IMG/VR virus record: IMGVR_UViG_3300023283_000182
Coordinates: 1 to 41,994 of that record
Direction: 5' to 3' (one strand)
From: a virus
Taxonomy: Duplodnaviria; Caudoviricetes
DNA: 41,994 bases
Shown here piece after piece: positions 1 to 24,042 of the stretch. A program made the position numbers and the translations under genes. Positions within the stretch are counted from its first letter, which is position 1. Each line of letters opens with the position of its first letter. A model generated the notes under the pieces. It had not been told where the DNA came from, searched no databases, and saw only the letters and a program-made list of their open reading frames with translations.

Positions 1-66
1 GTCAGCGAAAAAGCTGTCTTCGAGTCCTCGCTGCGATGGTGGCGATGGCGATTCCGACACGTCTGA
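1..66 (+). CDS. 3' end of an unknown ORF truncated by the window start
   Basis: Frame 1 is open from base 1 to TGA at 64-66 (VSEKAVFESSLRWWRWRFRHV*). It is on the same strand as all other genes but too short to verify. Confidence 0.3.
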   Translation, partial: VSEKAVFESSLRWWRWRFRHV

Positions 67-80
67 ATCACCGGGTACTG

Positions 81-248
81 GCCCCACGCGGGGCCGCGTG
101 GGGCCGCGTAGGGCCGCGTGGGGCCGCGTGGGGCCGCGTAGGGCCGCGTGGGGCCGCGTGGGGCCGCGTGGGGCCGCGTGGGGCCGCGTGGGGCCGCGTG
201 GGGCCGCGTGGGGCCGCGTGGGGCCGCGTGGGGCCGCGTGGGGCCGCG
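81..248. repeat. 10-bp G-rich tandem repeat (GGGCCGCGTG)n preceded by one inverted unit
   Basis: 15 full units at 91-240 (two with G>A, at 110 and 140) plus a partial unit at 241-248. Bases 81-91 (GCCCCACGCGG) are the reverse complement of the unit. Confidence 0.97.
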
Positions 249-292
249 AGCCGTTATACGGCATCTGTGGGCTCGTTCGCGTAACTACAAAG

Positions 293-486
293 TATATCGG
301 CACTTACAGAAACGTCCCTGCCCAGCCTCGACGTAAGTGCCGATATATCTGGTATTTAAGAAATCGCAATTTTCTTCAAATTGTCGCTGGCAAAGGCAAA
401 TCCCGTAAGTGCAGGACAAATCGGTACTTACGTGAACCTCAGCTTTGCCCATTTCACGTAAGTACCGATATATGCGGTATTTAAGA
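293..486. repeat. Two inverted-repeat pairs plus a 30-bp direct repeat (operator/iteron-like)
   Basis: TATATCGGCACTTAC 293-307 has its exact reverse complement at 333-347. ATCGGTACTTACGTGAA 420-436 has its exact reverse complement at 453-469. 332-361 and 457-486 are near-identical direct copies. An extra half-site CGTAAGTGC lies at 404-412. Confidence 0.92.
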
Positions 487-2042: not shown

Positions 2043-2239
2043 AGTTCAAGCTCCTGCTCCTCGCACTGGTCATCCTCGTGTTCGCGGCGTACACTTATGT
2101 CGCGCACAAGAAAGCTACGTCCATCGACAGGAAGGAAGTCTTCACGAGCGAAGCTCTTACTCGGGACTACGAAGCCAAGATCACTTATGATGGCGAAGGC
2201 AACTACGAAGTCATCGTAAAGGAAGGCAAAGATGATTGA
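2039..2239 (+). CDS. Small membrane-anchored protein (66 aa)
   Basis: ATGA overlap with the upstream stop. N-terminal hydrophobic segment MKFKLLLLALVILVFAAY. Confidence 0.7.
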   Translation: MKFKLLLLALVILVFAAYTYVAHKKATSIDRKEVFTSEALTRDYEAKITYDGEGNYEVIVKEGKDD

Positions 2240-3008
2240 GCTCCGGTACCGGCTTGACAAAGGTGAAATGTATCTCGGCCGTGCCGAGGAGACCCTGAAG
2301 AAAATGGCCGGAGCTCGGCTCATCTTCATGGACCCGCCGTTCAATCAAGGCGAGGCCTACGATACTTGGGATGATGACATGGATGACCATCTCTACGAAC
2401 GCTTCCTGGAAACGTGCATCAAGCGCGCCGGGGCTTCGATCGCAGGCGATGGATCTCTTTGGGTGCACGTCCCGGATCGCTGGGCGGCGAATGCTGTGTG
2501 CTACGCTCGGGACCGCCTCGGGATGCGGCTGGAGAACTGGGTCATCTGGCACTACCGGTTTGCCGTATGGCAGCCGAACCGATTCTTGAAGAGCAAGTGT
2601 CACGGGTTATGGTTCTCCTGGGGGGACCCTGTCATCAACCGCGAAGCTGGCCTTGTTCCGTCGGACAGGGCCTCCATCTACAACGACGGAAGGGCTGCAA
2701 CCTCGAGCGATTCCGGTCTGCGGATGGACTTGGATGTCTGGGGATTCGACCGCTATTGGGGTCGGGTCCAAGGCAATAACCAAGAACGACGATCGTTACA
2801 CCCGAATCAGCTTCCGGAGAAGTACCTCAAACGGATTATCGGCGTACTAACTAACGAAGGCGATCTCGTCGGAGATCCCTTTTGCGGGAGCGGGACTACT
2901 GCCGTAGTGGCGGGGGCTCTTAACCGTCGGTTCATTACGGGCGACGTCAGCGAGAAATATCTCAATAGCGCTTGTGCGCGCCTTGAGAAAGGAGCGGTTC
3001 GGGTATGA
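2232..3008 (+). CDS. Orphan beta-class DNA amino-methyltransferase (N6-A/N4-C)
   Basis: Catalytic motif IV (DPPF) precedes SAM-binding motif I (DPFCGSGTT); HPNQLP motif present. Confidence 0.92.
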   Translation: MIELRYRLDKGEMYLGRAEETLKKMAGARLIFMDPPFNQGEAYDTWDDDMDDHLYERFLETCIKRAGASIAGDGSLWVHVPDRWAANAVCYARDRLGMRLENWVIWHYRFAVWQPNRFLKSKCHGLWFSWGDPVINREAGLVPSDRASIYNDGRAATSSDSGLRMDLDVWGFDRYWGRVQGNNQERRSLHPNQLPEKYLKRIIGVLTNEGDLVGDPFCGSGTTAVVAGALNRRFITGDVSEKYLNSACARLEKGAVRV

Positions 3009-4418: not shown

Positions 4419-4850
4419 ATGCTATTGTCCGTAGAAACAGAGTCCGGCATCCAGAAAGAACGTGCGGTCGTCATCGGTGACTACCTGCATCTACCTGATT
4501 TGCGCCTGCGAATCCGCGTCACTGATCTCGACTACCCTATTCATGTCGTGGGCACCCACAAGATATTGGAGCTAGATCCCGTGATGTCAGCCGTCGCTAA
4601 GAGGGAACCGGTGATTCTTCAGATCCCCGACTTGGATGAACTGGAACTGCTTCTACAGGACCGGCTAGTTGCAGCGAGATACGGCCCTACACTGGTAGTC
4701 AGGGCGAAATCACGATTCTCCCTGAAAACGGTTGCCGACTACCTTCAAGTCTCTGAGACATCGTTGCGCTTCATCATGAATGGCGAAGTAACGTGTACTC
4801 CGAGCCTGGCGATTCGATTAACCTCCATGGTAAGGGATAACGATGAGTAA
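4419..4850 (+). CDS. Protein with C-terminal XRE-type HTH
   Basis: SLKTVADYLQVSETSLRFIMNG...TPSLAIRL fits an XRE/HigA-like HTH. Confidence 0.7.
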   Translation: MLLSVETESGIQKERAVVIGDYLHLPDLRLRIRVTDLDYPIHVVGTHKILELDPVMSAVAKREPVILQIPDLDELELLLQDRLVAARYGPTLVVRAKSRFSLKTVADYLQVSETSLRFIMNGEVTCTPSLAIRLTSMVRDNDE

Positions 4851-5694
4851 GAAAGATTACAACTTCGGGTCTAGCTCCGTTGGTGACTTCTTTGGCTGGA
4901 TAAACGAAAGACATCAGATATACTTAAACAAGATACAAGGATATCCGAAACCGTGGACGGATGATCCGGTTCTCCGCCGGTACAAGTTCACGAACGTATT
5001 CCGACAGCTTGACAGGACAACAGTTGCGTTGAACAGGGCTATACGCTACTCTGAACCGCCCGAAGACGTCGTATTCAACATCTGGTGGATGCGGCTATTC
5101 AACCTCTCAGATCACATGGAAAATCTCGGATTTGTCCCGATCTCTGAGCACCACAGGGTGTTTGAATACATCCGATCTCGTCACGCAGAGGGCAAGAAAA
5201 TCTTTTCCGGCGCTTACATGACAACCGGAGAAGCCGGACGGCCGAAGCATGAGACTTATCTTGACGCGGTGAAAGATGCCGTCTCGGAAGCGTCGAATGT
5301 CGTCGAGTTCTGCAAAGAAGACGGTACGATGCAGAATCTTTGCAGTGAGTTGACGAACTGCTTCATGGTCGGCAAGTTCGTCGCGTACGAATTAGCTTGC
5401 GACTTCAGGTTCGTGACGAGCCTGTGGTCTGACGACAAGCCTACAGATACGATGACGTGGGCGAACATCGGCCCCGGCGCGAAGCGGGGCATGGAGCGTC
5501 TCGGTATGGAGCCTTCGGTTGAATCCATGCGCAGGCTGCTTCGCCGCAGCTTTGAGGCGTTGGATGCTCATGTCCTCCTCTGCGCTTGGCCGTTCGAACT
5601 CCGGGAGATCGAGCATTGTCTCTGTGAATTTGATAAGTATGAGCGAGCCCGTACCGGCGCAGGCCGCCCACGTTCCACGTATCCAGGAGAATAA
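4843..5694 (+). CDS. DNA base hypermodification protein, aGPT-PPlase clade 1 family
   Basis: ERHQIY..K..G.PKPWTDDPVLRRYKFTNVFR..DR, GKFVAYELACD, GPGAKRG and EIEHCLCEFDKYER are the recalled signature of this family. Confidence 0.88.
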   Translation: MSKKDYNFGSSSVGDFFGWINERHQIYLNKIQGYPKPWTDDPVLRRYKFTNVFRQLDRTTVALNRAIRYSEPPEDVVFNIWWMRLFNLSDHMENLGFVPISEHHRVFEYIRSRHAEGKKIFSGAYMTTGEAGRPKHETYLDAVKDAVSEASNVVEFCKEDGTMQNLCSELTNCFMVGKFVAYELACDFRFVTSLWSDDKPTDTMTWANIGPGAKRGMERLGMEPSVESMRRLLRRSFEALDAHVLLCAWPFELREIEHCLCEFDKYERARTGAGRPRSTYPGE

Positions 5695-5697
5695 ACT

Positions 5698-6045
5698 GTG
5701 TGGATTTTCACTCGCAACGGATTCTGTAGTGTCGTGCAACACAAGCACGCTTCGACCGTCCTGATCGTTCGGTGCCGATGCAAAGAAGACGCGGATAAGC
5801 TGCGACGAGCCTGCAATGGCACTGCGGTTCAGGACACCCCCGAATCTGACTACCGGTACCGATTCCTTGCGGATCGCAAGGAATTCGCCGCCTTCGCGGC
5901 CAAGCTCGTCGAAGAAATCGATTACCCTAACTTCAAGGATGAGGTCCACGCCGTGGATCCGTCGAAGGAACGATCAGAAGCCTACCTTGAAGTTTGGTCC
6001 AGCATGTACAACCTCCAACAAAAGAAATCAGGAGCCACAGTATGA
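5698..6045 (+). CDS. Conserved phage hypothetical protein
   Basis: GTG start with AGGAG SD. The MWIFT..GF.S.V...VR.R...SDYRYR...IDYPNFK pattern is familiar from phage proteins; function unknown. Confidence 0.8.
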   Translation: MWIFTRNGFCSVVQHKHASTVLIVRCRCKEDADKLRRACNGTAVQDTPESDYRYRFLADRKEFAAFAAKLVEEIDYPNFKDEVHAVDPSKERSEAYLEVWSSMYNLQQKKSGATV

Positions 6046-6578
6046 TCTTCAATATACGCGGGACCAACGGATCCGGGAAGAGTCACATCGTCCACCGGCT
6101 CTTAAAGAAGTATGACCATGAGACGATCCTCGAGGGCGAGAAGGTCATCGGATACTACCTCCCAGACCTGGACCTCCACGTCGTAGGGGCGTATCAGACG
6201 GTTTGCGGCGGATGCGACCGCATAGCAGATCAGGATCGGGTTGAGGAGCTCGTTCGAGAGTTCACATGCGGGCACGTTCTCTTCGAAGGCTTGCTCGTAA
6301 GTCATACGTTCCAGCGATGGGCGGATCTATTCGAAGAACTCGGAGTGGAGACCCACGTCTTATTCCTCGATACCCCGATGGAGGAATGTATCGAGCGGGT
6401 GAAACAGCGCCGCTTGGCACAAGGAAACGAAAAGCCTTACGATCCCAAGAACCTGATCAAAGACTGGCACTGCGCCCGTCGGGTCGCGGCCCGGTTCACA
6501 GAAACGGACTGCAAGGTCTATTGGATGAACGGGGATCAAATCCTCCAGCACGTAGAAAGGGCGATCACTGATGTTTGA
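6042..6578 (+). CDS. P-loop nucleotide/DNA kinase of hypermodification clusters (5-hmdU DNA kinase-like)
   Basis: Walker A IRGTNGSGKS, G.Y...CGGCD motif and VLFEG Walker B. AGGAG SD and an ATGA overlap support the start at 6042. Confidence 0.85.
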   Translation: MIFNIRGTNGSGKSHIVHRLLKKYDHETILEGEKVIGYYLPDLDLHVVGAYQTVCGGCDRIADQDRVEELVREFTCGHVLFEGLLVSHTFQRWADLFEELGVETHVLFLDTPMEECIERVKQRRLAQGNEKPYDPKNLIKDWHCARRVAARFTETDCKVYWMNGDQILQHVERAITDV

Positions 6579-7620
6579 GTTACGACAGCGCCAACCGCCG
6601 GCGCTCCGCCACGTACTCAATGAGATGTTGCCGCTGACGGACGGGCCGATTGACCGTGTCATCAACATCGTCTGCTCAAGCCGAAGCGGCAGTTCTCTTT
6701 TCAAGGAAGCCCTGTCTCGGCTCCCCGGGGTGATCACACTTGCAGGTGAAGAGGAGCCGTATTGGCGTTTAAGCGGCAATGGCTATCGGCTCACAGGTTA
6801 TGATGATAGCTTCACGAACCCCGCAAACCCTGAGCTCATGCGTCGCCTCATCGCGGATGAACTCTACGAAGAAAACGCTGAGAAACGATGGCGGAAGCGG
6901 CTGCTCATGCAGTTCGGCCGTTGGGACGGACCGATCGGTCGCTGGGCTGATTTATCCTGGCTCGGTGACAAAATCGGATACTATGATGGGTACCGTCGGC
7001 CCTGGGATCGGTTCTTCAAGCTCGAAGAACCGCCGTTCGTCCTTCCCAAGCCTTACGAAAATCCTCGCGGGAAGGCACTGGTCCTCAAAACCCCTCAAAA
7101 CGTGTATCGACCCGGCGCGCTTGAGAAGGTCTTCCCGAACATTGAAATCGAGCATATCTACCTCACGCGAAACTTCGCCAGCACAATCAACGGCCTAATC
7201 GATGGATGGTACTGCGATTTCGGATTCTTCGCCCACCCGGTGCCGACCCATCGTGGATGGCGGTGGTGGAAGTTCGATATGCCGCCGGGGTGGTCCTTTG
7301 ATATGAGCATCGAAGAACGAGCTATGTTTCAGTGGAGATCTGCCCATCTTTGGGGCCTGTCCTACTGGAAGTCGGCTGAAAGAGTAAAGTTCGAAGACCT
7401 GCTGGTCGATCCCGCCGCCGTCGTGAACGACATCGGCCGCAAGTTCAATCTCGGCCAAGTATCTCCGAAATCTTTTGACCTCCCATCCACGATGACTACT
7501 GACCAGCCAGCTCCATTCCGCTGGGTGCGCCGGAAACAGAAGGTCCTCCGGTTTCAAGCTGACGCCAAGCTGATCATGGAACGCCTCGGATACAAGATGG
7601 AGCCTGAGACATGGTTGTGA
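6571..7620 (+). CDS. PAPS-dependent sulfotransferase family protein
   Basis: 5'-PSB-like loop CSSRSGSSLF, LKTP, 3'-PB-like IYLTRN, and VKFEDLLVDP. Confidence 0.75.
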   Translation: MFELRQRQPPALRHVLNEMLPLTDGPIDRVINIVCSSRSGSSLFKEALSRLPGVITLAGEEEPYWRLSGNGYRLTGYDDSFTNPANPELMRRLIADELYEENAEKRWRKRLLMQFGRWDGPIGRWADLSWLGDKIGYYDGYRRPWDRFFKLEEPPFVLPKPYENPRGKALVLKTPQNVYRPGALEKVFPNIEIEHIYLTRNFASTINGLIDGWYCDFGFFAHPVPTHRGWRWWKFDMPPGWSFDMSIEERAMFQWRSAHLWGLSYWKSAERVKFEDLLVDPAAVVNDIGRKFNLGQVSPKSFDLPSTMTTDQPAPFRWVRRKQKVLRFQADAKLIMERLGYKMEPETWL

Positions 7621-8447
7621 GAGACGATTTCCTGCTCTTTGCAGAGAGACAACTCATCACCGGCGGGTTCGATGCGGTCCATCCGTTGTTCCTAGAGGCG
7701 ACCAGAGGGTGGACCAAGTCGGATCGTGCTTGGTTAACGATGCTCTATATGACGTACTATAACGATGCCTGCGCATGGTACGTCTTCCATCGGAGCGACC
7801 CGTGGACAGTACAGCAATGGCCGAGTCTCAAAATTGATACTAACCGGCGATGCCTTCGTGGCGGCGCGCATCAGGAACACCTTGAACATGTCTGCGAGGT
7901 GGGCTGGGATACGTTGATCTCAGGCTTCAGTGACGACCGGTGCGATAACTGGGCCTTGCTGGAACATCGCCTCGAACGGATCCGCTGGAATGGCGCGTGG
8001 GCATCTTATACGACTGCGGATATGCTCGGCCGCTTGTGCGGGCTGCCCATCGACGCGCCGGACATCGGGACAACCGGCAACCCGATCGATGGGTTTAAGT
8101 ACGCTACGGGCGAAGAGCCGGATCCCTGGAATTGTGCAGAGCTCCTGAGTCGCGTGGAACAGTGGGCTCCGGCATACATGGAACGCTGCGACATGCAAGC
8201 GCTCGAGAGTATATGCTGCGACTACTGGTCCTGGGTCAAGCGGCGGTTCTACGTCGGCAGGAGCATCGACCGGCAGCAACGGCGGATCGGGGATTTCGAG
8301 GAGGAACACGACGTTGACATGGGGACACTCTGGAAATCTCGCAGAAGAGCCTTCGATGAACGAACACTCGGAGAACTTAATGGGTGGTACGGAATTCAGA
8401 AAGACAGACTGGGATTGTACCCCCGATGTCCTTGGCGTCATGCGTAG
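7611..8447 (+). CDS. Amino acid:DNA transferase-like protein (aGPT-PPlase clade 2 family)
   Basis: F..F.....TGGFD.VHP, W...Y..YYN, NRRCLRG, GAWASY..ADM and LESICCDY...FYVGRSID resemble the family, though divergent. Confidence 0.7.
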   Translation: MVVRDDFLLFAERQLITGGFDAVHPLFLEATRGWTKSDRAWLTMLYMTYYNDACAWYVFHRSDPWTVQQWPSLKIDTNRRCLRGGAHQEHLEHVCEVGWDTLISGFSDDRCDNWALLEHRLERIRWNGAWASYTTADMLGRLCGLPIDAPDIGTTGNPIDGFKYATGEEPDPWNCAELLSRVEQWAPAYMERCDMQALESICCDYWSWVKRRFYVGRSIDRQQRRIGDFEEEHDVDMGTLWKSRRRAFDERTLGELNGWYGIQKDRLGLYPRCPWRHA

Positions 8448-9099
8448 GGCCGTCTTCGCACCCTACTTCGTGTTCCGTCACGTAGAAGTCAGCGTCCCGA
8501 ACGTCGTTGAAGTGAGAGGCGACGGCCCGGCGGAGCTCTTCCAGGCCATCATTGCGCACAAGCCGCGCACCCTGTTTTCTCTGGATTGCGTGAACACGAT
8601 TGCATTCCGCGCTTGTTTGCCGGACGATCTGAATCTCGTCTGGTTCGACAGCCATGGTGATTTTAATACTGAGGAAACGACGGAAACCGGTCACCTCGGC
8701 GGGATGGCGCTGGCGAAATTGACGGGCCGGGGCGATCAATTTCTCATGGAGCTTGCAAAAGCGAAGACGATCCCGGACGAAAACGTGCAGCTTGTCGGCG
8801 GTACTGTCCTGGATCCTCTCGAAGCCCGGGCTCTCCTGCAAAGCGGTATCCGCCACGGTATGTCCTGCAAGCAACCAGAGGGGTTCACTTGGGTTCACCT
8901 GGATACAGATATCGTCGCTGACTGGGAATGCGCGATGGATCACCCCAGCGCGGGGCTGCCCTTGCAGGAAATCGAGCGGCAGATCAAGGGTCTCCGATTC
9001 GACGCGATTTCATTTTCTCTGTGGAACCCTCGACGTGATCTCCATCACACTGTTGGTCAGCGGTTCTATGAGTTCCTTCTCGGAGCCGTGATGAGATGA
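8440..9099 (+). CDS. Arginase/ureohydrolase family protein (219 aa)
   Basis: Metal motifs WFDSHGDFNT and HLDTD, plus GHLGGMALA. The GGDH position reads SLDC. Start 8440 is inferred from the overlap with the upstream stop. Confidence 0.85.
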   Translation: MRRAVFAPYFVFRHVEVSVPNVVEVRGDGPAELFQAIIAHKPRTLFSLDCVNTIAFRACLPDDLNLVWFDSHGDFNTEETTETGHLGGMALAKLTGRGDQFLMELAKAKTIPDENVQLVGGTVLDPLEARALLQSGIRHGMSCKQPEGFTWVHLDTDIVADWECAMDHPSAGLPLQEIERQIKGLRFDAISFSLWNPRRDLHHTVGQRFYEFLLGAVMR

Positions 9100-9572
9100 A
9101 GACCCTGTATTCTCCTTACAACGATTTCATACTCCGCCGGGTGAAGCTGCGAGTGCCTCACCTGGATCTGCGGGATATGCTCCGATTGGATGCCCCGCCG
9201 ATCACGCGGTATTACGATACCGTCAGGGAAATCGATTTCGACGTTTTTCTCTGTCATGACCACCTATCAACGATGGGCGTCCTGGCATCCTTGCCGCCGG
9301 TAGCGACTGTTCAATGGATCGCCGATGAACCTAACTTTCCGCTGGAAGAGAACCGCATGATGGCGATCGCCGGCGCGACACCCGCGATTCCGAAGGTCGG
9401 CGATGTCGATTGGATTCACCTGGATCTTCTCAAGGTCTTGCGAAATCCGGCTAAACTTGCTACAATACGGAAGTTTCGGGTCTTGTCTGTACAACTCTGG
9501 GACTCGATGGACAAGCGTGATTACAACCGTGAACTTCAATCTCTATTGAAAGGACTAGGGCTATGGAAGTAA
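9096..9572 (+). CDS. Degenerate arginase-fold paralogue of the upstream gene
   Basis: Collinear similarity to 8440-9099 (PY...V.L.VP, DH..T....A.LP, W.HLD, F...S..LW), but DxHxD and DxD are lost. Confidence 0.65.
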   Translation: MKTLYSPYNDFILRRVKLRVPHLDLRDMLRLDAPPITRYYDTVREIDFDVFLCHDHLSTMGVLASLPPVATVQWIADEPNFPLEENRMMAIAGATPAIPKVGDVDWIHLDLLKVLRNPAKLATIRKFRVLSVQLWDSMDKRDYNRELQSLLKGLGLWK

Positions 9573-11782
9573 TTAAACGAGATGGCTCTCGCCAGCGCTA
9601 TGATTCCCGCAAGATCGAGCAAGCTGTGAAGAAGGCGGGCGGTGACGGGACAGCGGTCGCGAACGCCGCGCTGCGCGAAATCACCGGTAAGGATGAAGTC
9701 ACTGTTCAGGACCTTCACCGAATCGTTGAAAACCAGTTGATGAAGATTGATCCGGATTCGGCGCGGCGATACATCGAATACCGCAGTGAGCGTGACCGAG
9801 AACGTGCTGCAAGGCAGAAGCCGGACCCGGGTGCGATCTCCGGCTACATCCACGCGGCGAAATACGCCAAGTTCACCGGTACGCGGCGTGAAACATTCCT
9901 CGAGACCGTCGCGCGCAGCGAAAAAATGCACTCTGACCGCTGGCCAGAGCTTGCGGATGAGATCCATGCCGCCTTCGAGTTCGTCCGGCAGAAGAAGGTC
10001 CTCCCGTCCATGCGTTCGATGCAGTTTGCGGGGTACGCGATCGAGAGGCACAACGCGCGGATGTACAACTGTTCGTTCACGTTCGCGGATCGTCCGCGCG
10101 TCTTTGCCGAAATCTTCTACTTGTTGCTTTGCGGCTGTGGCGTCGGATTCTCCGTGCAGACTCACCACGTAGAAGCGATCCCGGAGCTCGTCCCTATCGA
10201 CCGATCCCGCGTTTATCACCATCACGTCGAAGATTCAATCGAAGGGTGGGCTGATGCCGTGGACCGGTTGTTCCATTCTGTCACGCAAGGCTACCACGTG
10301 GAATTCGATTATTCACAGATCCGTCCAGAGGGAGCGCCGCTTAACGCCGGAGGCAAAGCACCGGGTCATATTCCGTTGCGCGACTGTCTGGAAACGCTTC
10401 GTGAATTCTGGTCGCACCCCCGGAAGCTGCGACCCATTGAGGTCTGCGATTCCATCTGTCACATCGCTGAAGCGGTCCTTGCTGGCGGTATTCGTCGATC
10501 GTCGCTCATCTGTCTCTTCAGCCCTGAGGATTCAGAGATGATGGAGGCGAAGGCCCCAGCGAACTTTGAATGGACCGGAAAGAACAAGCAACGAGCGATG
10601 GCGAACAATTCCGCGGTCTTCGTCCGTGGGCGCTACGATCAAACGAAGTTCAAAGAAGTTGTCCGCCGGGCGCGGACAGAGTTTGAGCCCGGCTTCTTCC
10701 TTACGCCATCGACCGAATACGGAACGAATCCCTGTGGCGAAATCGGATTGGACCCCGTTCGGCTCGGCAGGACCGGTTTCGGGTTCTGCAACCTCACAGA
10801 AGTGAACGTCGCGGCTTGCCGCGACCACGCGGAGTTCTTTGGCGCATGCCGCGCCGCCGCGTTCATCGGGACGCTGCAAGCGGCGTACACAGATTTTAAG
10901 TACATCGAGACAGAGACCGCCTCACGGGATGCGTTGCTCGGTGTCAGCTTGACGGGCATTATGGACAACCCAGAGATCGGTCTATCCCCGGCGGCGCTGC
11001 AGCCGGCGGCTCGTATCTGTGTTGAAGAAAATCGCGTCATCGCCGAGCGCATTGGCATCCCTCCGGCGAGACGCATCACCTGTGTCAAACCTAGCGGCAC
11101 GGCGAGTCTCGAATTCGGCGGCGTCAGCTCGGGCATCCATCCGCAGCACGCGCGACGATTCTTCCGACGCGTGACTGCGAATAAAAACGAGCCCATCGCG
11201 AAGGCGTTTCGCGAGATCAATCCGCATATGGTTTTCGATAAAAGCCGCACGGACTGGTCCATTACCTTCCCCATCCAGGTCCCCGACGATGCAATCACCC
11301 TCAAAGATATCAGCGGGCAGGAGTTCATGGACGCGGTTGCTACCGTCTATGACCATTGGGTCAAACCCGGTACCCGGTTCGGGAAGCTCACGCACAATGT
11401 CTCGTGTACAGTTGCGCTTGAAGAAGACGAGGAATTCACCGTAGATGCCTCTCGGGTTGCTGCAATGTCATTCGCGCCGAAGGGGAATGACCGGCTCCCG
11501 TTCATGCCGCGCCAAGCCGTGGCGACAGAAGAAGACGAAGCGCTCTGGCGGCGGTTGATCCGCGAGTACACGCCCGTTCCCTACGACGAGCTCCAGGAGG
11601 ATGAAGACGGTACGGTACATGTTCTCGCTGCCGCTTGCGCCGGTGGGCAATGCGAAATCGAACACGCGTCATCTGCCTCGACAGCGGATGGCGGGCAATA
11701 CTTCAAGGACGTGCCTGAGGGATACACCGTCATAGCGAAGTTAGGAGATCTATCATGGGCTCGCCCCTCACCGAAAAGCTGA
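9563..11782 (+). CDS. nrdJ: Class II (cobalamin-dependent) ribonucleotide reductase with N-terminal ATP-cone
   Basis: VIKRDG ATP-cone start, PSMR, YNCSF, GCGVGF, GGIRRS, NPCGE, CNLTE, TCVKPSGT and C-terminal CAGGQC. No radical subunit gene nearby. Confidence 0.92.
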   Translation: MEVIKRDGSRQRYDSRKIEQAVKKAGGDGTAVANAALREITGKDEVTVQDLHRIVENQLMKIDPDSARRYIEYRSERDRERAARQKPDPGAISGYIHAAKYAKFTGTRRETFLETVARSEKMHSDRWPELADEIHAAFEFVRQKKVLPSMRSMQFAGYAIERHNARMYNCSFTFADRPRVFAEIFYLLLCGCGVGFSVQTHHVEAIPELVPIDRSRVYHHHVEDSIEGWADAVDRLFHSVTQGYHVEFDYSQIRPEGAPLNAGGKAPGHIPLRDCLETLREFWSHPRKLRPIEVCDSICHIAEAVLAGGIRRSSLICLFSPEDSEMMEAKAPANFEWTGKNKQRAMANNSAVFVRGRYDQTKFKEVVRRARTEFEPGFFLTPSTEYGTNPCGEIGLDPVRLGRTGFGFCNLTEVNVAACRDHAEFFGACRAAAFIGTLQAAYTDFKYIETETASRDALLGVSLTGIMDNPEIGLSPAALQPAARICVEENRVIAERIGIPPARRITCVKPSGTASLEFGGVSSGIHPQHARRFFRRVTANKNEPIAKAFREINPHMVFDKSRTDWSITFPIQVPDDAITLKDISGQEFMDAVATVYDHWVKPGTRFGKLTHNVSCTVALEEDEEFTVDASRVAAMSFAPKGNDRLPFMPRQAVATEEDEALWRRLIREYTPVPYDELQEDEDGTVHVLAAACAGGQCEIEHASSASTADGGQYFKDVPEGYTVIAKLGDLSWARPSPKS

Positions 11783-19948: not shown

Positions 19949-20135
19949 GTACCGTGCCGAAATCCGGTGGATCGATGCCGCCGGGTTCAGCCAGTGGCAG
20001 GAAGTGACTTCCTCGGAATACGCGTCACTCCGGAGCAGGGTCCGAGCGGAATGCAAAGACATCGCTTCGCTGAACGGGAAGGTGCATAACGTAAAGTACG
20101 GTCCGCACGATGTCAAGAGGAACGCTGAATCCTGA
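19905..20135 (+). CDS. Possible small hypothetical protein
   Basis: Fills the 160-bp gap between portal and MuF, but has a weak TTG start and overlaps both. Confidence 0.3.
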   Translation: MREYRSMTKGSTKSKYRAEIRWIDAAGFSQWQEVTSSEYASLRSRVRAECKDIASLNGKVHNVKYGPHDVKRNAES

Positions 20136-23100
20136 TATCTTCACCTCCACCGGAGGCACGGCTAATGAAGCGCTCGTGGATTCCGCGATCAAGCACGCGG
20201 TTAACCTCGAGCGGTTCAAGAATGGCGAAGTCGCCGGCGTTATGCGGATTTTGAACGAGCAGGTCATTCCGGACCTCGCCTCTCAAATACAAGCAGAGCT
20301 CTCTCAGATCAGCGGTACAGGGAGCGTTCCGAAGAAGGTCGCCCGGTTGCAGAAGAAAGCGGCGGCGATCAAGGGGACCATGATCACCGGGTTGAAGAAA
20401 GTTTCTGACGACAAGCTGAAAAAGAGCCTCAGTGCTTTCGCGACTACTGAATCCGAGTGGCAATCGCGAATACTCAAGAAGTCAACCGGCCCGCTTGCGA
20501 TATCCTTCACTCAGCCGTCTCCGGCGACCCTAAGATCTCTTCTTACGAGTCAGCCGTTCCGTGGGCGGCTCTACGGCGAATGGTGGTCCGGACTTGCAGA
20601 AGGGACGGCTACAGAGGTTTCCAGGCAACTGAATATCGGTGTTACGCTGGGCGAAAATAATGATCAGATCATGCGCCGGATCATCGGGACAAAGTCTGTT
20701 CCCGGCGGAACGATGCAGCAGCTGAGGCGGAACGCACGAACACTTGTCCAGACCTCGACGAACCACGTTTCTTCGCAGGCACGTAACGAGGTCTTCAAGC
20801 AGAATATGGACGTCATTAAGGCGGTTCAATATGTCGCAACACTCGATGCTCGAACCACTGATATCTGCATGTCTCTGGATGGACGAACTTTCGAGGTCGG
20901 TACGTCGCATCCGACGCCACCGATGCACCATAAATGCCGATCCACGATTGTTCCCGTGTTGAAGAGCTGGAAGGAACTTGGGATCGATTTGAAGGAGGCC
21001 CCGGAGGGGACCCGCGCATCAATGGACGGGCAGGTCCCGGCAAAGATCACGTACGGGGAATGGCTGAAGAAACAACCGAAGAAGATCCAAGAAGAAGCTC
21101 TCGGTGTACGGAAAGCAGCGCTATTCCGCGAGGGGAAGATCACGGTCCGTGGTCTCGTAGATCAGAATAACAAGAGCCTGACCCTGAAGCAGCTTCGCAA
21201 GAAGGCCGGGCTGCCCGTCTCGCCGGAAGCGAATGCGGTTTCGTCTCCGCTCCCGGTGCCAAAGCCCCCTCGGGTCGAAGGACAGAAAGTTTCGCCTGAG
21301 CAATTCGAAGATATCGAGTCCCGCGTAACTCTGTTCAAAGAGAACGTATTAGACGGGGGAAAGGCGAATGCTTCTCTGCGCGCTGCGGGATGGGATGGTT
21401 CAAGCACACGAGTCATCAGTGGTTCTTCGAATCTCAAGGTACCGGATGAGGTTGTTGCATCAAATCCGCCCGTGCAGACTTTTGTCGTGACGACCACCAC
21501 AACGGACGATGCCTTGAGGATTTCGGATGCCCTGCTTGACTTTAATCTCAGGAACGTCGATCCTGCAATCACCAAGAAGAAGCTTCTCGAGGCGGGTTGG
21601 GACGGAAAGAGTGTCGCGATATCGCTCAAGAGTCCACAAGGCGCGGTGTTGAAGTTGATCCCGGACGACGTGATCCTCGCCAAGAAACCGAAGGTTGCGC
21701 CGAGGCCTGCGACGGCGGGGGCGAAGATTGAAGGGGAGAAGGCGCTTGTCCCGGTTGCCGCATTGGATGAAGCAGATGTCCTGATTTCAGAGTTCAGTGA
21801 GCTTTCCTCGAGTAACAAGAAAGAGATCATTACTGCGCTGAACAGCAAGGCGGGTGTGAAAGTCGTGGACCCCGGGAGTGGTAAATTCCTGGTGTCTGTT
21901 CTTGTTGATAAAGACGGCGGCTCTGATCAGGTTGTAGTACCGAAGCAACTGATAAAGGGCGCGAAGAAACTCCCCAAGGGGGCCGTCGTGGTGCCGGCTG
22001 ATACAGTGGATGCTCTGCAAGATATTTTCGAGTCCCGGACGCCGATGGGTAGTTCCGATGCGTCGCTGGTGAACGCAAACGTCGGAAAGAAGATCATCCT
22101 CCCTGACGGCAAATTCACGGTCGGTACTCGTATCATCGTAAACGCTGAGACCGGGGAGGAGATCCGGATCCCGGAAGCGTACCAGATAAATCCCAAGAAG
22201 AAACGGCTCCCGAAGCCGCCGGTCAAGAAGGATCTGAAATTCGGGGGTGTCATTCCGAGCGATGTCTTGGACCTAGCGAAGCAGATTCATCAAGATACCG
22301 TGAACGCTTTTAAGGGAATCGGCGGAAAAATTGCCAGTGCGGATGACATCGCTCGGATTAACTCACGTGCGGGAAAGAAAGTCCTGGATGAGAACGGGTA
22401 TTGGGCCGGTCGGTTCCGCAGAAGCAAGAAAAGCCGCAAGTCCACGTTCAAAGACCCCGAACCCACAGGACCGGTCCCTGACCCGTTTCCGAACGAAGCA
22501 AGTTTCCCAGAGGATGGTCTGAACCTCCGCAAAGTCCAGGACCTTGGCGGTTCCACAGGAGCCAAACTGGTCGAGGACTCTTCCGGCAAGCGATGGGTCC
22601 GCAAGTACGGCGCAAACGAGGAGCAGCTTAGAGAGGAGTTCCTGACCGAGGAACTCTACCGACTTGCAGGGATCCGTGTTCCGCCGTCACGTCTCTACAA
22701 GGATGCCGGTGATCAAACCTTTAAGCTAAGTGAGTTCGTCGAAGGGAAGACAATCGGCGAGCTTTCGGGCGAAGCGAGGGAAACAGCGTTCAAGGAAGCG
22801 CAGAAAGGTTACGTCGCGGATGCGGTATTCGCGAACTGGGATTCCGCCGGTCTCTCCGGAGACAACATGCTCGTTGATGCCGCCGGACGGGTGTGGCGCA
22901 TTGATGTCGGTGGGTCTCTGAGGTTCAGGGCTCAGGGTACTCCAAAAGGTGATACGTTTGATCGGTTCCCCATCGAGATCTGGAGCCTCCAGAAGCCGGA
23001 GCTCTTTCGCTTGCAGGGGAATTTCGGTGTTGAGGTGTTCCAGGGTATGAGTCATACGGATAAAGTCACCCAGATCGAATCTCTCGTGACAATCCGTGCG

Positions 23101-24042
23101 AAAATCCTGAGACAGATCAAGGATGAGGACCTCCGAAATACTGTTGCTCAGCGGATTGATGAGGCAGCGGACGTCGCATCTACGAGTCGTGATTTTCTGC
23201 GAGATCGATTTATCGATAGTTATGTCAGTGAGCTAACCCGGCATCAGATGGGGATCCGGAAAGCCGGAGCAATTGATCGGATTTCAACAATCTTGAAGCC
23301 GAAGGGGGGGTTCGGTACAGAGGCAGCAACCACCTTGGTCGACGATAAGGGGAAGGAGTGGGATCTCATTAGCGGCGAGGGGAGTTCGACTGAAGTAGTA
23401 ATCGATTATATCAATTCTGAGGGAGGAGACTATTCCTTGATATCCTCGTGGCAGCAAGCTCAGGGGGGTAGTAGCTGGATGCCTGCTGCGAGAGCCGCGA
23501 AGTGGTTCTGGGCCTCGAAGACGGGAGACACGGATCAGTTTTATTGGATGTCGGGATGGGGGGAGGAAGGAAAAGAGGCATCTAAGGCTGTGTTTGAAGA
23601 GAGAGTTCGATCATTCGGGAAGCAAACGGTTGAGACATCTTTTACAGCGTGGCACGCTTATACCCACGAGCTCTTGAAGAAAGTGAAGCTCCCATTCGGT
23701 AGTCGTTCACAGAAGACGATCCGACTTCTTAGAACAGAGAAAGAAAGTGTTCTGCGCGAATATGATATGCTTCGAGAACGCTCAGGCGGGAGAATCACGA
23801 GGGGTGCATGTGAGTCTTGCTCCTTAGTTCGTACGATTGCGATATACGGTACCAAGGAGTTTGTCACTGTTCAGGAGGTGCCTCACACACGAGTCTTCGG
23901 GACGTGGTTCCAGGGGCGGAGAATCGGAGGCGTGTGGAAATCGACGTTCTTGAGCTCAAAGGAAAACGAAATAACGGCGATGCTTCGAGATTTAGATGTA
24001 ACTACGGTGAAGCAGGTGGAGTGGAATGATACAAGTGACTAA
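20110..24042 (+). CDS. MuF/SPP1 gp7 minor head protein fused to repeats, an atypical kinase-like domain and an ADP-ribosyltransferase-like domain
   Basis: MuF: YVATLDARTTDICMSLDG...PPMHHKCRS. Kinase-like: LGGSTGA..WVRK..E..ANWD..DN..RIDVG. ART-like: LLR...ESCS...ENE. Confidence 0.88.
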   Translation: MSRGTLNPDIFTSTGGTANEALVDSAIKHAVNLERFKNGEVAGVMRILNEQVIPDLASQIQAELSQISGTGSVPKKVARLQKKAAAIKGTMITGLKKVSDDKLKKSLSAFATTESEWQSRILKKSTGPLAISFTQPSPATLRSLLTSQPFRGRLYGEWWSGLAEGTATEVSRQLNIGVTLGENNDQIMRRIIGTKSVPGGTMQQLRRNARTLVQTSTNHVSSQARNEVFKQNMDVIKAVQYVATLDARTTDICMSLDGRTFEVGTSHPTPPMHHKCRSTIVPVLKSWKELGIDLKEAPEGTRASMDGQVPAKITYGEWLKKQPKKIQEEALGVRKAALFREGKITVRGLVDQNNKSLTLKQLRKKAGLPVSPEANAVSSPLPVPKPPRVEGQKVSPEQFEDIESRVTLFKENVLDGGKANASLRAAGWDGSSTRVISGSSNLKVPDEVVASNPPVQTFVVTTTTTDDALRISDALLDFNLRNVDPAITKKKLLEAGWDGKSVAISLKSPQGAVLKLIPDDVILAKKPKVAPRPATAGAKIEGEKALVPVAALDEADVLISEFSELSSSNKKEIITALNSKAGVKVVDPGSGKFLVSVLVDKDGGSDQVVVPKQLIKGAKKLPKGAVVVPADTVDALQDIFESRTPMGSSDASLVNANVGKKIILPDGKFTVGTRIIVNAETGEEIRIPEAYQINPKKKRLPKPPVKKDLKFGGVIPSDVLDLAKQIHQDTVNAFKGIGGKIASADDIARINSRAGKKVLDENGYWAGRFRRSKKSRKSTFKDPEPTGPVPDPFPNEASFPEDGLNLRKVQDLGGSTGAKLVEDSSGKRWVRKYGANEEQLREEFLTEELYRLAGIRVPPSRLYKDAGDQTFKLSEFVEGKTIGELSGEARETAFKEAQKGYVADAVFANWDSAGLSGDNMLVDAAGRVWRIDVGGSLRFRAQGTPKGDTFDRFPIEIWSLQKPELFRLQGNFGVEVFQGMSHTDKVTQIESLVTIRAKILRQIKDEDLRNTVAQRIDEAADVASTSRDFLRDRFIDSYVSELTRHQMGIRKAGAIDRISTILKPKGGFGTEAATTLVDDKGKEWDLISGEGSSTEVVIDYINSEGGDYSLISSWQQAQGGSSWMPAARAAKWFWASKTGDTDQFYWMSGWGEEGKEASKAVFEERVRSFGKQTVETSFTAWHAYTHELLKKVKLPFGSRSQKTIRLLRTEKESVLREYDMLRERSGGRITRGACESCSLVRTIAIYGTKEFVTVQEVPHTRVFGTWFQGRRIGGVWKSTFLSSKENEITAMLRDLDVTTVKQVEWNDTSD

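What the first reader, a model, noticed from the sequence alone, without database searches (positions are those of the whole stretch)
4843..9572. DNA hypermodification operon with tailoring enzymes not in the known thymidine pathways
Seen: seven abutting or overlapping genes. They encode a clade-1 aGPT-PPlase-family protein, an unknown protein, a P-loop kinase, a sulfotransferase, a clade-2 amino acid:DNA transferase, an arginase and a pseudo-arginase, running straight into nrdJ. Established: in phiW-14, SP10, ViI and M6-type phages, the kinase activates 5-hydroxymethyluracil in DNA and the transferase attaches an amino acid. PLP decarboxylases, radical-SAM, flavin or acetyltransferase enzymes then tailor it. 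Inference: sulfotransferase and ureohydrolase genes fill the tailoring slots here. This predicts an undescribed base, for example an arginine/ornithine/putrescine-derived and/or sulfated thymidine. I know of no characterised phage pathway with this combination.
Basis: partly seen in the sequence, partly recalled or inferred. Interest (0 to 1): 0.92.

Follow-up and report, generated by a model that had tools for sequence, protein, structure and literature searches.

The report
Phage pathway for N-sulfonated thymine DNA
This uncultured phage carries the kinase and transferase genes known to decorate thymine in DNA next to a sulfotransferase and an arginase-like gene, a pairing also found in 12 other phage gene clusters, and it likely makes a small sulfur–nitrogen compound from arginine and attaches it to its DNA, which would give a base not found in the papers searched.

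Summary
Observation confirmed, except the 'pseudo-arginase' label. The window is a 65%-complete phage contig. It encodes a 5-hmdU kinase, its helical partner, a sulfotransferase (ST), a clade-2 transferase (AADT; catalytic Glu/Cys kept, best fold match PaMx11 gp46) and an arginase.

The combination is conserved: 12 other phage clusters pair this ST with an AADT. Across phages and bacteria, 116 of 121 ST groups lie beside either a DcsB-like arginase or a DDAH-like hydrolase, never both, and one ST–hydrolase fusion exists. Both closest solved enzymes cleave N-substituted arginines.

The pair also occurs without DNA genes, and two AADT lineages carry an anion transporter instead. Best reading: PAPS + arginine → N-sulfo-arginine → sulfamate or sulfo-urea → transfer to 5-phosphomethyl-dU. 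The AADT pocket argues against putrescine or glycine. Nucleocidin's NucO shares the family's C-terminal motif, tying this to the unexplained S–N bond of sulfamate antibiotics.

No chemistry is shown, the 5-hmU source is missing from the contig, and no cultured phage has this ST. The scan noted the cytosine-type sister cassette before (e1-6107244).

The parts
4843..5694 (+).
   Evidence: Pfam E 2.9e-46; phrog_2396 1.6e-53; 474 cultured-phage records match
5698..6045 (+). 115-aa protein of unknown function; passenger, not in related cassettes
   Evidence: no family hit; hypothetical homologues in 7 cultured phages; none in the ST loci
6042..6578 (+). P-loop 5-hmdU DNA kinase (5-HMUDK), 178 aa from ATG 6042
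   Evidence: PF18748 E 4.1e-13; 51-52% identical kinases in two related cassette phages
6571..7620 (+). PAPS-type sulfotransferase, 349 aa, of a family tied to guanidino hydrolases; predicted arginine N-sulfotransferase, probably NucO/AcmO-like
   Evidence: PF13469; SSRSGSS loop, invariant E60 and R200; model pLDDT 84 with best folds 4GBM/3RNL/4GOX; neighbourhoods
7611..8447 (+). Clade-2 aGPT-PPlase / amino acid:DNA transferase (AADT), 278 aa, with catalytic E199 and C203 and an altered donor pocket
   Evidence: PF18724 25.6 bits; Foldseek best hit PaMx11 gp46; E199/C203 align with gp46 E243/C247
8440..9099 (+). Arginase-fold ureohydrolase, 219 aa, DcsB-like (Cys in place of the first metal-binding His; DxHxD and HxDxD kept)
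   Evidence: the family profile's best PDB hit is N-omega-hydroxy-L-arginine amidinohydrolase, E 3.6e-25, with the Cys aligned
9096..9572 (+). 158-aa orphan; arginase-like fold not established
9563..11782 (+). Class II (B12) ribonucleotide reductase, overlapping the cassette; also adjacent in L023 and L027
   Evidence: TIGR02505 E 4.9e-56

Best explanation
The cluster encodes a 5-hmdU DNA kinase and an intact DNA transferase beside a sulfotransferase and a DcsB-like arginase, and it likely works by sulfonating free arginine, cutting off a small N-sulfonated fragment, and attaching that fragment to thymine positions in the phage DNA. Steps: (1) 5-hmdU enters the DNA from a hydroxymethylase or TET/JBP gene presumed to lie in the missing third of the genome (inferred from relatives). 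(2) The kinase makes 5-phosphomethyl-dU (family function shown for homologues in PMC8989533). (3) The sulfotransferase uses host PAPS to make N-omega-sulfo-arginine (inferred). (4) The arginase releases ornithine plus N-sulfo-urea, which may lose its carbamoyl group to give sulfamate; DDAH-like relatives would release sulfamate directly (inferred). (5) AADT Cys203 adds to C6, phosphate leaves, and the small anion adds to the exocyclic methylene (mechanism shown for homologues, donor inferred). Predicted base: 5-(sulfoamino)methyl-dU (C10H15N3O8S, about 337.06 by hand arithmetic) or the sulfo-ureido form (about 380.06). The presumed purpose is to block host nucleases.
For: (a) 116 of 121 ST groups have an arginase (87) or a pentein hydrolase (29) within 2 kb on the same strand, never both; the 5 misses lie at contig ends. 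(b) A 766-aa ST–hydrolase fusion exists (P0205). (c) The best solved relatives of both hydrolase types act on N-substituted arginine: DcsB E 3.6e-25 and DDAH E 1.5e-26, ahead of ADI and amidinotransferases. 84 of 87 ST-linked arginases carry the DcsB-type Cys, while 65 of 66 control viral arginases have His. (d) Closely related STs swap hydrolase type (L072 arginase with L011/L016 pentein, support 98). (e) The pair occurs without DNA genes (78 bacterial groups with a methyltransferase; APS kinase nearby in 20 groups), which points to a small-molecule substrate and PAPS. (f) In 3 of 11 loci from the reciprocal AADT scan, a DASS-like anion transporter abuts the AADT in place of ST plus hydrolase. 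These AADTs nest among ST-linked ones (96/99) and share their pocket. (g) Pocket in gp46 numbering: E92 to N/Q/A, K150 to T, K248 to D/N and E265 to R in 11 of 12 ST-linked AADTs, and Y/F257 in all 12. The diamine enzyme needs Asp at 257 and the glycine enzymes use K248 (PMC13458397 section 38). (h) Nucleocidin sulfamylation needs the ST NucO and the 'amidinotransferase' NucN (PMC10946740 section 7). NucO's reported closest folds, 4GBM and 4GOX, are ranks 1 and 3 for this ST, and its primer-derived C-terminus fits a motif that ends 310 of 362 family proteins against 5 of 933 other ORFs. (i) Five of five related cassette phages tested have a 5-hmU source candidate: four TS-fold, one TET/JBP.
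Against: No enzyme was assayed and no DNA was analysed. Arginase and DDAH chemistry give different primary products (sulfo-urea versus sulfamate), so a single donor is not assured. Sulfamate is a weak nucleophile (general knowledge). No hydroxymethylase or TET gene is in the contig (65% complete). The transporter phages are 20-63% complete, so an unlinked ST is not excluded, and the transporter's substrate is unknown. The pocket is not simply more basic, since K248 becomes Asp, and L018's AADT lacks the signature. The window's ST has pI 9.1, compatible with DNA binding, and the charge comparison did not discriminate. The loci are a biased sample (best 80 of 255 and best 80 of 215). More distant members differ: two haloarchaeal loci have CysC plus a YqcI/YcgG hydroxylase and no full-length hydrolase, and a Streptomyces plasmid copy sits in an NRPS cluster. 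The full NucO sequence was never seen.
Confidence: 0.5

Rival explanations
1. On-DNA tailoring. The AADT attaches arginine through its guanidino nitrogen, the hydrolase trims it to 5-aminomethyl-dU (DDAH type) or 5-ureidomethyl-dU (arginase type), and the sulfotransferase N-sulfonates the base in DNA. The end product could be the same N-sulfonated base by a different order of steps.
For: Both hydrolase types are best matched by enzymes for N-substituted arginines, which a thyminyl-arginine also is. Known pathways tailor on the polymer (PMC8989533). The window's ST is basic (pI 9.1).
Against: The same ST–hydrolase pair works in 78 bacterial groups with no DNA genes and in a nucleotide-level cassette. 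Transporter replacement beside nested AADTs fits a diffusible donor. AADT-linked hydrolases are as acidic as the bacterial ones (median pI 5.4-5.8; weak evidence). The AADT pocket gains Arg and loses two Glu, which is poor for a cationic donor.
Confidence: 0.2
2. The ST acts on N-hydroxy-arginine (O-sulfation), and the hydrolase releases hydroxyurea-O-sulfate, hydroxylamine-O-sulfonate or a breakdown product, giving an N–O-linked or plain amino/ureido base.
For: DcsB, the best match, hydrolyses N-hydroxy-arginine. Haloarchaeal family members sit beside YqcI/YcgG guanidine N-hydroxylases (PMC12866846 passages). L075 has a haem-oxygenase-like redox gene right after the arginase.
Against: No hydroxylase was identified in the window, and no shared hydroxylase family appeared in the clustering of the first 98 loci. 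The nucleocidin product has an S–N bond.
Confidence: 0.12
3. The arginase simply supplies ornithine or putrescine for the AADT, giving a phiW-14-like base, and the ST adds sulfate separately or not at all.
For: The arginase fold and most metal ligands are intact. Putrescine and diaminopropane transfer by AADTs is known (PMC8989533, PMC13458397).
Against: Y/F at the column where diamine enzymes have Asp; the D238Y mutation abolished diamine transfer in PMC13458397 section 38. Eight AADT clusters use a DDAH-like enzyme, which would not release ornithine. The Cys ligand marks a non-standard substrate.
Confidence: 0.08
4. The ST–arginase pair is an auxiliary small-molecule module that happens to sit among DNA-modification genes and does not touch the DNA; the base is a known one.
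For: The pair exists on its own in many bacteria. Cultured actinophage AADTs related to this one have no ST.
Against: ST and AADT occur together in 13 distinct phage clusters with different gene orders, abutting in most. A distinct AADT pocket tracks with the module. A second phage cassette couples the pair to TS-fold and kinase genes in 21 groups.
Confidence: 0.08

Closest known systems
5-HMUDK/AADT thymidine hypermodification of phages M6, PaMx11, ViI, phiW-14, SP10 and SH-Ab 15599 (PMC8989533, PMC11472151, PMC13458397)
   Same: P-loop 5-hmdU kinase, helical-domain gene, HhH-fold AADT with catalytic Glu/Cys, location beside ribonucleotide reductase genes.
   Different: No PLP, radical-SAM, flavin or acetyltransferase gene in the cluster. 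A sulfotransferase and a guanidino hydrolase instead. The AADT lies outside the branch of characterised enzymes (100/100) and has a different donor pocket. The donor is probably made by the phage, not taken from the host pool.
Sulfamate module of nucleocidin/ascamycin biosynthesis (NucO/AcmO sulfotransferase, NucN/AcmN amidinotransferase; PMC10946740, PMC4257720, PMC9113183)
   Same: A weakly annotated Sulfotransfer_3 protein with the same closest folds, paired with a guanidino-modifying enzyme (acmN and acmO are consecutive in the ascamycin table), PAPS-dependent, with a matching C-terminal motif.
   Different: The product there is a 5'-O-sulfamoyl ribonucleoside needing at least nine genes, including sulfatases, a second ST and methyltransferases. 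Here the predicted acceptor is the C5-methylene of a base in DNA. Homology to NucO rests on fold and an 8-residue end, not on the full sequence.
DcsB, N-omega-hydroxy-L-arginine amidinohydrolase (PDB 6LUG), and DDAH (PDB 3RHY)
   Same: Best solved matches to the two interchangeable hydrolases; shared Cys ligand and HxDxD with DcsB; catalytic His and Cys with DDAH.
   Different: Neither is known, in what I read, to act on a sulfonated arginine or in DNA modification. No DcsA-type hydroxylase was identified in the window.
ParB/TET/AADT/kinase clusters of actinophages Tonitrus, Wooper and Kozie (PMC11955845 passages)
   Same: Nearest cultured AADT homologues (26-30% identity).
   Different: No ST in the two genomes searched; they keep E92 and K150 and have a Rossmann-type gene instead.

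Membership tests
5-HMUDK/AADT thymidine hypermodification system | P-loop 5-hmdU DNA kinase gene | tested here: met
   PF18748 E 4.1e-13, 49.7 bits over cut-off 27
5-HMUDK/AADT thymidine hypermodification system | Clade-2 AADT with HhH fold and catalytic Glu...Cys | tested here: met
   Foldseek best hit PaMx11 gp46; E199/C203 align with E243/C247; Pfam score 25.6 is just under the cut-off of 26.2
5-HMUDK/AADT thymidine hypermodification system | Source of 5-hmdU (dUMP hydroxymethylase or TET/JBP) in the same genome | tested here: inconclusive
   Absent from the 65%-complete contig; a candidate is present in 5 of 5 related records
5-HMUDK/AADT thymidine hypermodification system | Hypermodified thymidine in virion DNA | not testable with these tools
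   Needs LC-MS; no cultured phage carries this ST or the pentein partner
Glycine:DNA transferases (M6 gp51, PaMx11 gp46) | Glycine-binding K150, W146, D24 and K248/Y257 | tested here: not met
   D24 and W146 kept; K150 is T, K248 is D, Y257 is F
Diamine:DNA transferases (phiW-14 gp109, 15599 DADT) | Asp at the Y257-equivalent column and Gly at the K248-equivalent column | tested here: not met
   Window has F213 and D204; phiW-14 has D and G (PMC13458397 section 38)
PAPS-dependent sulfotransferases | 5'-phosphosulfate loop, 3'-phosphate Arg, P-loop-like fold | tested here: met
   SSRSGSS and invariant R200; PF13469 over cut-off; all 15 Foldseek matches at E <= 0.001 that are listed are sulfotransferases
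NucO/AcmO sulfamate-pathway sulfotransferases | Full-length homology to NucO/AcmO | tested here: inconclusive
   Sequence not obtainable. Indirect only: same top folds (against PMC10946740), C-terminal motif, 442-aa Streptomyces member 30% identical to the window ST; no protein named NucO or AcmO among the 120 listed
Canonical arginase (RocF) | His as first Mn ligand; equivalog score | tested here: not met
   Cys at that site; TIGR01229 36.4 bits against cut-off 227.6
DcsB-type amidinohydrolase | Cys ligand, DxHxD and HxDxD motifs | tested here: met
   alignment
DcsB-type amidinohydrolase | Activity on N-hydroxy-arginine with a DcsA partner | not testable with these tools
   No YqcI/YcgG hit among the window ORFs scanned; activity needs an assay
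Arginase-fold pseudo-enzyme (9096-9572) | Detectable arginase/deacetylase homology | tested here: inconclusive
   0.0 bits, 11 of 500 shuffles as high; TM 0.51 to UPF0489 on a pLDDT 0.35 model

The most novel reading that the evidence does not exclude
Phages install a sulfamate (S–N bonded) group on pyrimidines in their DNA. An arginine N-sulfotransferase plus either of two unrelated hydrolases is the general biological route to sulfamate, the same one that builds nucleocidin and ascamycin. Phages have coupled this module twice: to thymine after replication through an AADT (this window), and to a nucleotide before replication through a repurposed thymidylate-synthase-fold enzyme.
Probability: 0.35. 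Interest if true: 0.92.

Novelty: new variant of a known kind. Interest (0 to 1): 0.8.

Why it matters
If true, it adds an anionic, sulfur-bearing base to the known DNA alphabet, made by a transferase that uses a phage-synthesised donor rather than a host amino acid or polyamine. The stripped-down phage cassette also isolates a two-enzyme module, sulfotransferase plus guanidino hydrolase, which offers a direct test of how the S–N bond of sulfamate antibiotics is formed; the reviews I read call that mechanism unknown (PMC9113183 passages). Four small genes and a 5-hmdU DNA substrate are enough to test it. It would also give a function to an orphan three-gene cluster common in Oxalobacteraceae, and possibly a new DNA-labelling enzyme.

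Tried and rejected
Cultured phages: no match to the ST or to the pentein partner; the arginase matched only two partial hits in Staphylococcus records. So no isolate is available to test.

Single-sequence searches with the AADT found nothing but itself; the alignment-based scan was needed. A PDB sequence search with the ST found nothing meaningful.

Tying the family to the nucleocidin cluster by sequence failed. A genus-wide Streptomyces search could not be centred, because the plasmid record has no relatives. Cluster look-ups and a homologue search gave Streptomyces members but none named NucO or AcmO, and no fetched protein carried the primer-derived NucO ends.

The charge (pI) test for DNA binding did not discriminate, since gp46 itself is acidic.

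'Pseudo-arginase' for 9096 was tested and not supported. Putrescine and glycine donors were rejected on pocket residues.

Iyer et al. 2013, the paper that defined these families, is not held, so I could not check whether it lists sulfotransferase neighbours. No complex prediction and no read mapping were run.


Full report
The window and the observation. The window is a whole virus record of 41,994 bases, estimated 65% complete. It has siphophage-type head and tail genes from 14.7 kb onward. Pfam gives HMUDK_hel for 4843 (E 2.9e-46), 5-hmdU kinase for 6042 (4.1e-13), Sulfotransfer_3 for 6571 (3.7e-6), ADDT for 7611 (1.2e-5, just under cut-off) and arginase for 8440 (1e-5). Folding settled the two weak calls. 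The 7611 model (pLDDT 84) matches only PaMx11 gp46 glycinyltransferase at E below 0.001, and its E199 and C203 align with gp46's catalytic E243 and C247 (PMC11472151 passages). The 6571 model (pLDDT 84) matches sulfotransferases, with 4GBM, 3RNL and 4GOX first. ORFs 5698 and 9096 have no family hit and no homologue in related clusters. The label 'pseudo-arginase' is not supported by sequence (0.0 bits; 11 of 500 shuffles as high) and is only faintly hinted at by a poor model.

The combination is conserved. I collected loci for the sulfotransferase (ST) family from three collections: 18 viral loci, the best 80 of 255 metagenome stretches and the best 80 of 215 genome stretches. With the window these 179 loci fall into 121 groups at 90% identity. 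With a strict rule (hit over 250 bases, within 2 kb, same strand), 116 of 121 groups have a guanidino-cleaving neighbour: an arginase in 87, a pentein-fold enzyme in 29, never both. The five misses have only 212-353 bases downstream or 16 bases upstream. The neighbour profiles were built from these same loci, but their identities were checked independently against Pfam. Three contexts appear. A: phages with an AADT, usually also the kinase and helical gene (12 groups with the window: 4 arginase, 7 pentein, 1 cut off); a thirteenth, with TET/JBP, came from the reciprocal AADT scan. B: large phages with a nucleotide kinase, usually followed by TS-fold genes and an APH-type kinase (21 groups with the pentein enzyme); this is the cassette the scan noted earlier as e1-6107244. 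C: bacteria, mostly Oxalobacteraceae, with a HemK-like methyltransferase and the arginase (78 groups); APS kinase lies nearby in 20 groups. As a control, none of the best 80 of 137 viral loci with ordinary arginases has an ST, AADT, kinase or helical gene nearby. A 766-aa protein fuses the ST to the pentein enzyme. The wider family is larger (366 clusters at E up to 1e-30) and its contexts were mostly not examined. The three distant loci I did read differ: two haloarchaeal ones have CysC and a YqcI/YcgG guanidine hydroxylase, and one Streptomyces copy lies in an NRPS cluster.

What the hydrolases cut. A profile of five cassette arginases matches DcsB, the N-hydroxy-arginine amidinohydrolase, best (E 3.6e-25), and shares its Cys at the first metal site. 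By a motif search, 84 of 87 ST-linked arginases have that Cys (2 His, 1 unread), whereas 65 of 66 distinct control arginases have His. A profile of eight pentein partners matches DDAH best (E 1.5e-26), ahead of arginine deiminases and amidinotransferases. All 27 long enough to read have no Asp two residues after the catalytic His; that ADI has one there is recalled. Two unrelated folds, each closest to an enzyme for N-substituted arginine and each tied to the same ST, point to a sulfonated arginine as the shared intermediate. Closely related STs swap hydrolase type (L072 arginase with L011 and L016 pentein, support 98).

Donor supply rather than DNA tailoring. Three results favour a diffusible product. 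First, the pair works in bacteria with no DNA-modification genes. Second, context B suggests chemistry on a nucleotide. Third, 3 of the 11 loci from the AADT scan (L189, L190, L191; two distinct lineages) have a DASS-like anion transporter abutting the AADT in place of ST and hydrolase. Those AADTs nest within an ST-linked clade (96/99). No ST was found in their records, which are only 20-63% complete (the positive control rang). The AADT pocket also differs: in gp46 numbering E92 becomes N/Q/A, K150 T, K248 D/N and E265 R in 11 of 12 ST-linked enzymes and in both transporter-linked ones, and position 257 is Y or F in all. PMC13458397 section 38 shows that diamine transfer needs Asp at the 257-equivalent and that K248 with Y257 gives glycine transfer. 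The donor is therefore probably neither a diamine nor glycine, and the gain of Arg with loss of two Glu would suit an anion. Against this: K248 becomes Asp, L018 lacks the signature, I had no coordinates to inspect the pocket, and a charge comparison did not discriminate (the window's ST has pI 9.1).

The sulfamate link. Sulfamylation of nucleocidin needs NucO, a weakly annotated Sulfotransfer_3 protein whose closest folds are 4GBM and 4GOX, and NucN, an 'amidinotransferase' (PMC10946740 section 7). In the ascamycin cluster acmN (319 aa) and acmO (444 aa) are consecutive (PMC4257720 Table 1), and the S–N step is described as unknown (PMC9113183 passages). The published nucO reverse primer translates to YTDPAHWI at the C-terminus. 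A Tyr-x(3-8)-Trp end is found in 310 of the 362 proteins of 300 aa or more fetched in the ST searches, against 5 of 933 other ORFs. A 442-aa Streptomyces member is 30% identical to the window's ST over its length. I never saw the NucO sequence, so membership is likely, not shown.

Mechanism. Shown here: the genes, their folds, catalytic residues and linkage. Shown for homologues: phosphorylation of 5-hmdU, and Cys-mediated displacement through an exocyclic methylene that even accepted mercaptoethanol (PMC8989533). Inferred: 5-hmdU is supplied by a gene in the missing part of the genome. None is in the contig, but four of five relatives have a TS-fold gene and the fifth a TET/JBP gene; the TS motif in the records of L004 and L025 matches PaMx11 gp51. 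Also inferred: the ST makes N-omega-sulfo-arginine from host PAPS; the arginase releases sulfo-urea or, after loss of the carbamoyl group, sulfamate; and the AADT transfers it, giving 5-(sulfoamino)methyl-dU (about 337.06) or the sulfo-ureido form (about 380.06; masses by hand). I put this at 0.5. On-DNA trimming and sulfonation, which could end in the same base, gets 0.2; an N-hydroxy-arginine route 0.12; ornithine or putrescine supply 0.08; an unrelated passenger module 0.08. A sulfur-bearing base of some kind is therefore the majority outcome.

Prior knowledge. Ten full-text searches found no paper joining a sulfotransferase, arginase or sulfamate to phage base modification, and none giving an arginine N-sulfonation route to sulfamate. 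PMC8989533 has no occurrence of arginase, amidino or transporter, and its 'sulf' hits are unrelated, though its discussion mentions unnamed further enzyme families; I did not see its Figure 2 or supplements. PMC13458397 and PMC13229309 have no occurrence of arginase or amidino, and PMC7824862 none of sulfotransferase, arginase or amidino. Iyer et al. 2013 is not held and could mention such neighbours. Subscription journals are mostly outside the library. What I saw: PMC8989533, abstract, sections 16, 17, 21, 23, part 3 of 9 and passages; PMC10946740, section 7, passages, supplement part 3 of 3 and supplement passages; PMC13458397, abstract, sections 33 and 38 and passages; PMC9113183, PMC4257720, PMC11472151, PMC11955845, PMC13229309 and PMC12866846, passages only; PMC7824862, an empty term search.

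Verdict. A real, recurrent variant of thymidine hypermodification with a chemistry not found in print, and a testable lead on natural sulfamate formation. No cultured phage carries it, so reconstitution is the route. Novelty: new variant of a known kind. Interest 0.8.

Noticed in passing
L189/L190/L201 and L191 (for example L190:7899-14834): Phage clusters with AADT, a 474-aa DASS-like anion transporter, one or two 5-hmdU kinases and the helical gene (plus an HD-type protein and a TS-fold gene in L190); the transporter stands where ST and hydrolase stand in relatives.
   Followed up: partly
L001:9417-14616 and 20 other groups: Large phages with nucleotide kinase, ST, DDAH-like enzyme, an atypical TS-fold protein, an APH-type kinase and often a second TS-fold protein; looks like a nucleotide-level counterpart of the same chemistry.
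   Followed up: partly
L036, L100, L102, L146 and about 75 other bacterial groups: Orphan methyltransferase–ST–DcsB-like arginase cluster, mostly in Oxalobacteraceae, often next to an NMT1-type binding protein, two-component genes or APS kinase; product unknown.
   Followed up: partly
L180:6932-10031 and L181:6971-10050: Haloarchaeal plasmids carry ST, CysC and a YqcI/YcgG guanidine hydroxylase in a row; L181 also has a short pentein-like ORF.
   Followed up: partly
P0205: 766-aa fusion of the ST with the pentein hydrolase; genomic context not seen.
   Followed up: no
L075:7047-7556: A haem-oxygenase-like iron redox gene (PF14518) directly follows the arginase in this AADT cluster.
   Followed up: no
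L018:7796-9007: Two tandem kinase paralogues and an HD nucleotidase precede a divergent AADT that lacks the pocket signature of the other ST-linked enzymes.
   Followed up: no
L182:3761-4642 and L183:3054-3926: Cultured actinophages Tonitrus and Wooper have an unannotated gene of about 290 aa with a weak Rossmann-type N-terminus beside their TET/AADT/kinase genes; their base could be measured directly.
   Followed up: no
window 36-300: Tandemly repeated sequence at the left end, seen as repeated peptides in three reading frames.
   Followed up: no
window 20110-24042: 1310-aa head-morphogenesis (MuF-like) protein with about 900 residues of unannotated C-terminal extension.
   Followed up: no
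window 2232-3008: An N6/N4 DNA methyltransferase lies 1.8 kb upstream of the cassette, next to an ATP-dependent ligase.
   Followed up: no
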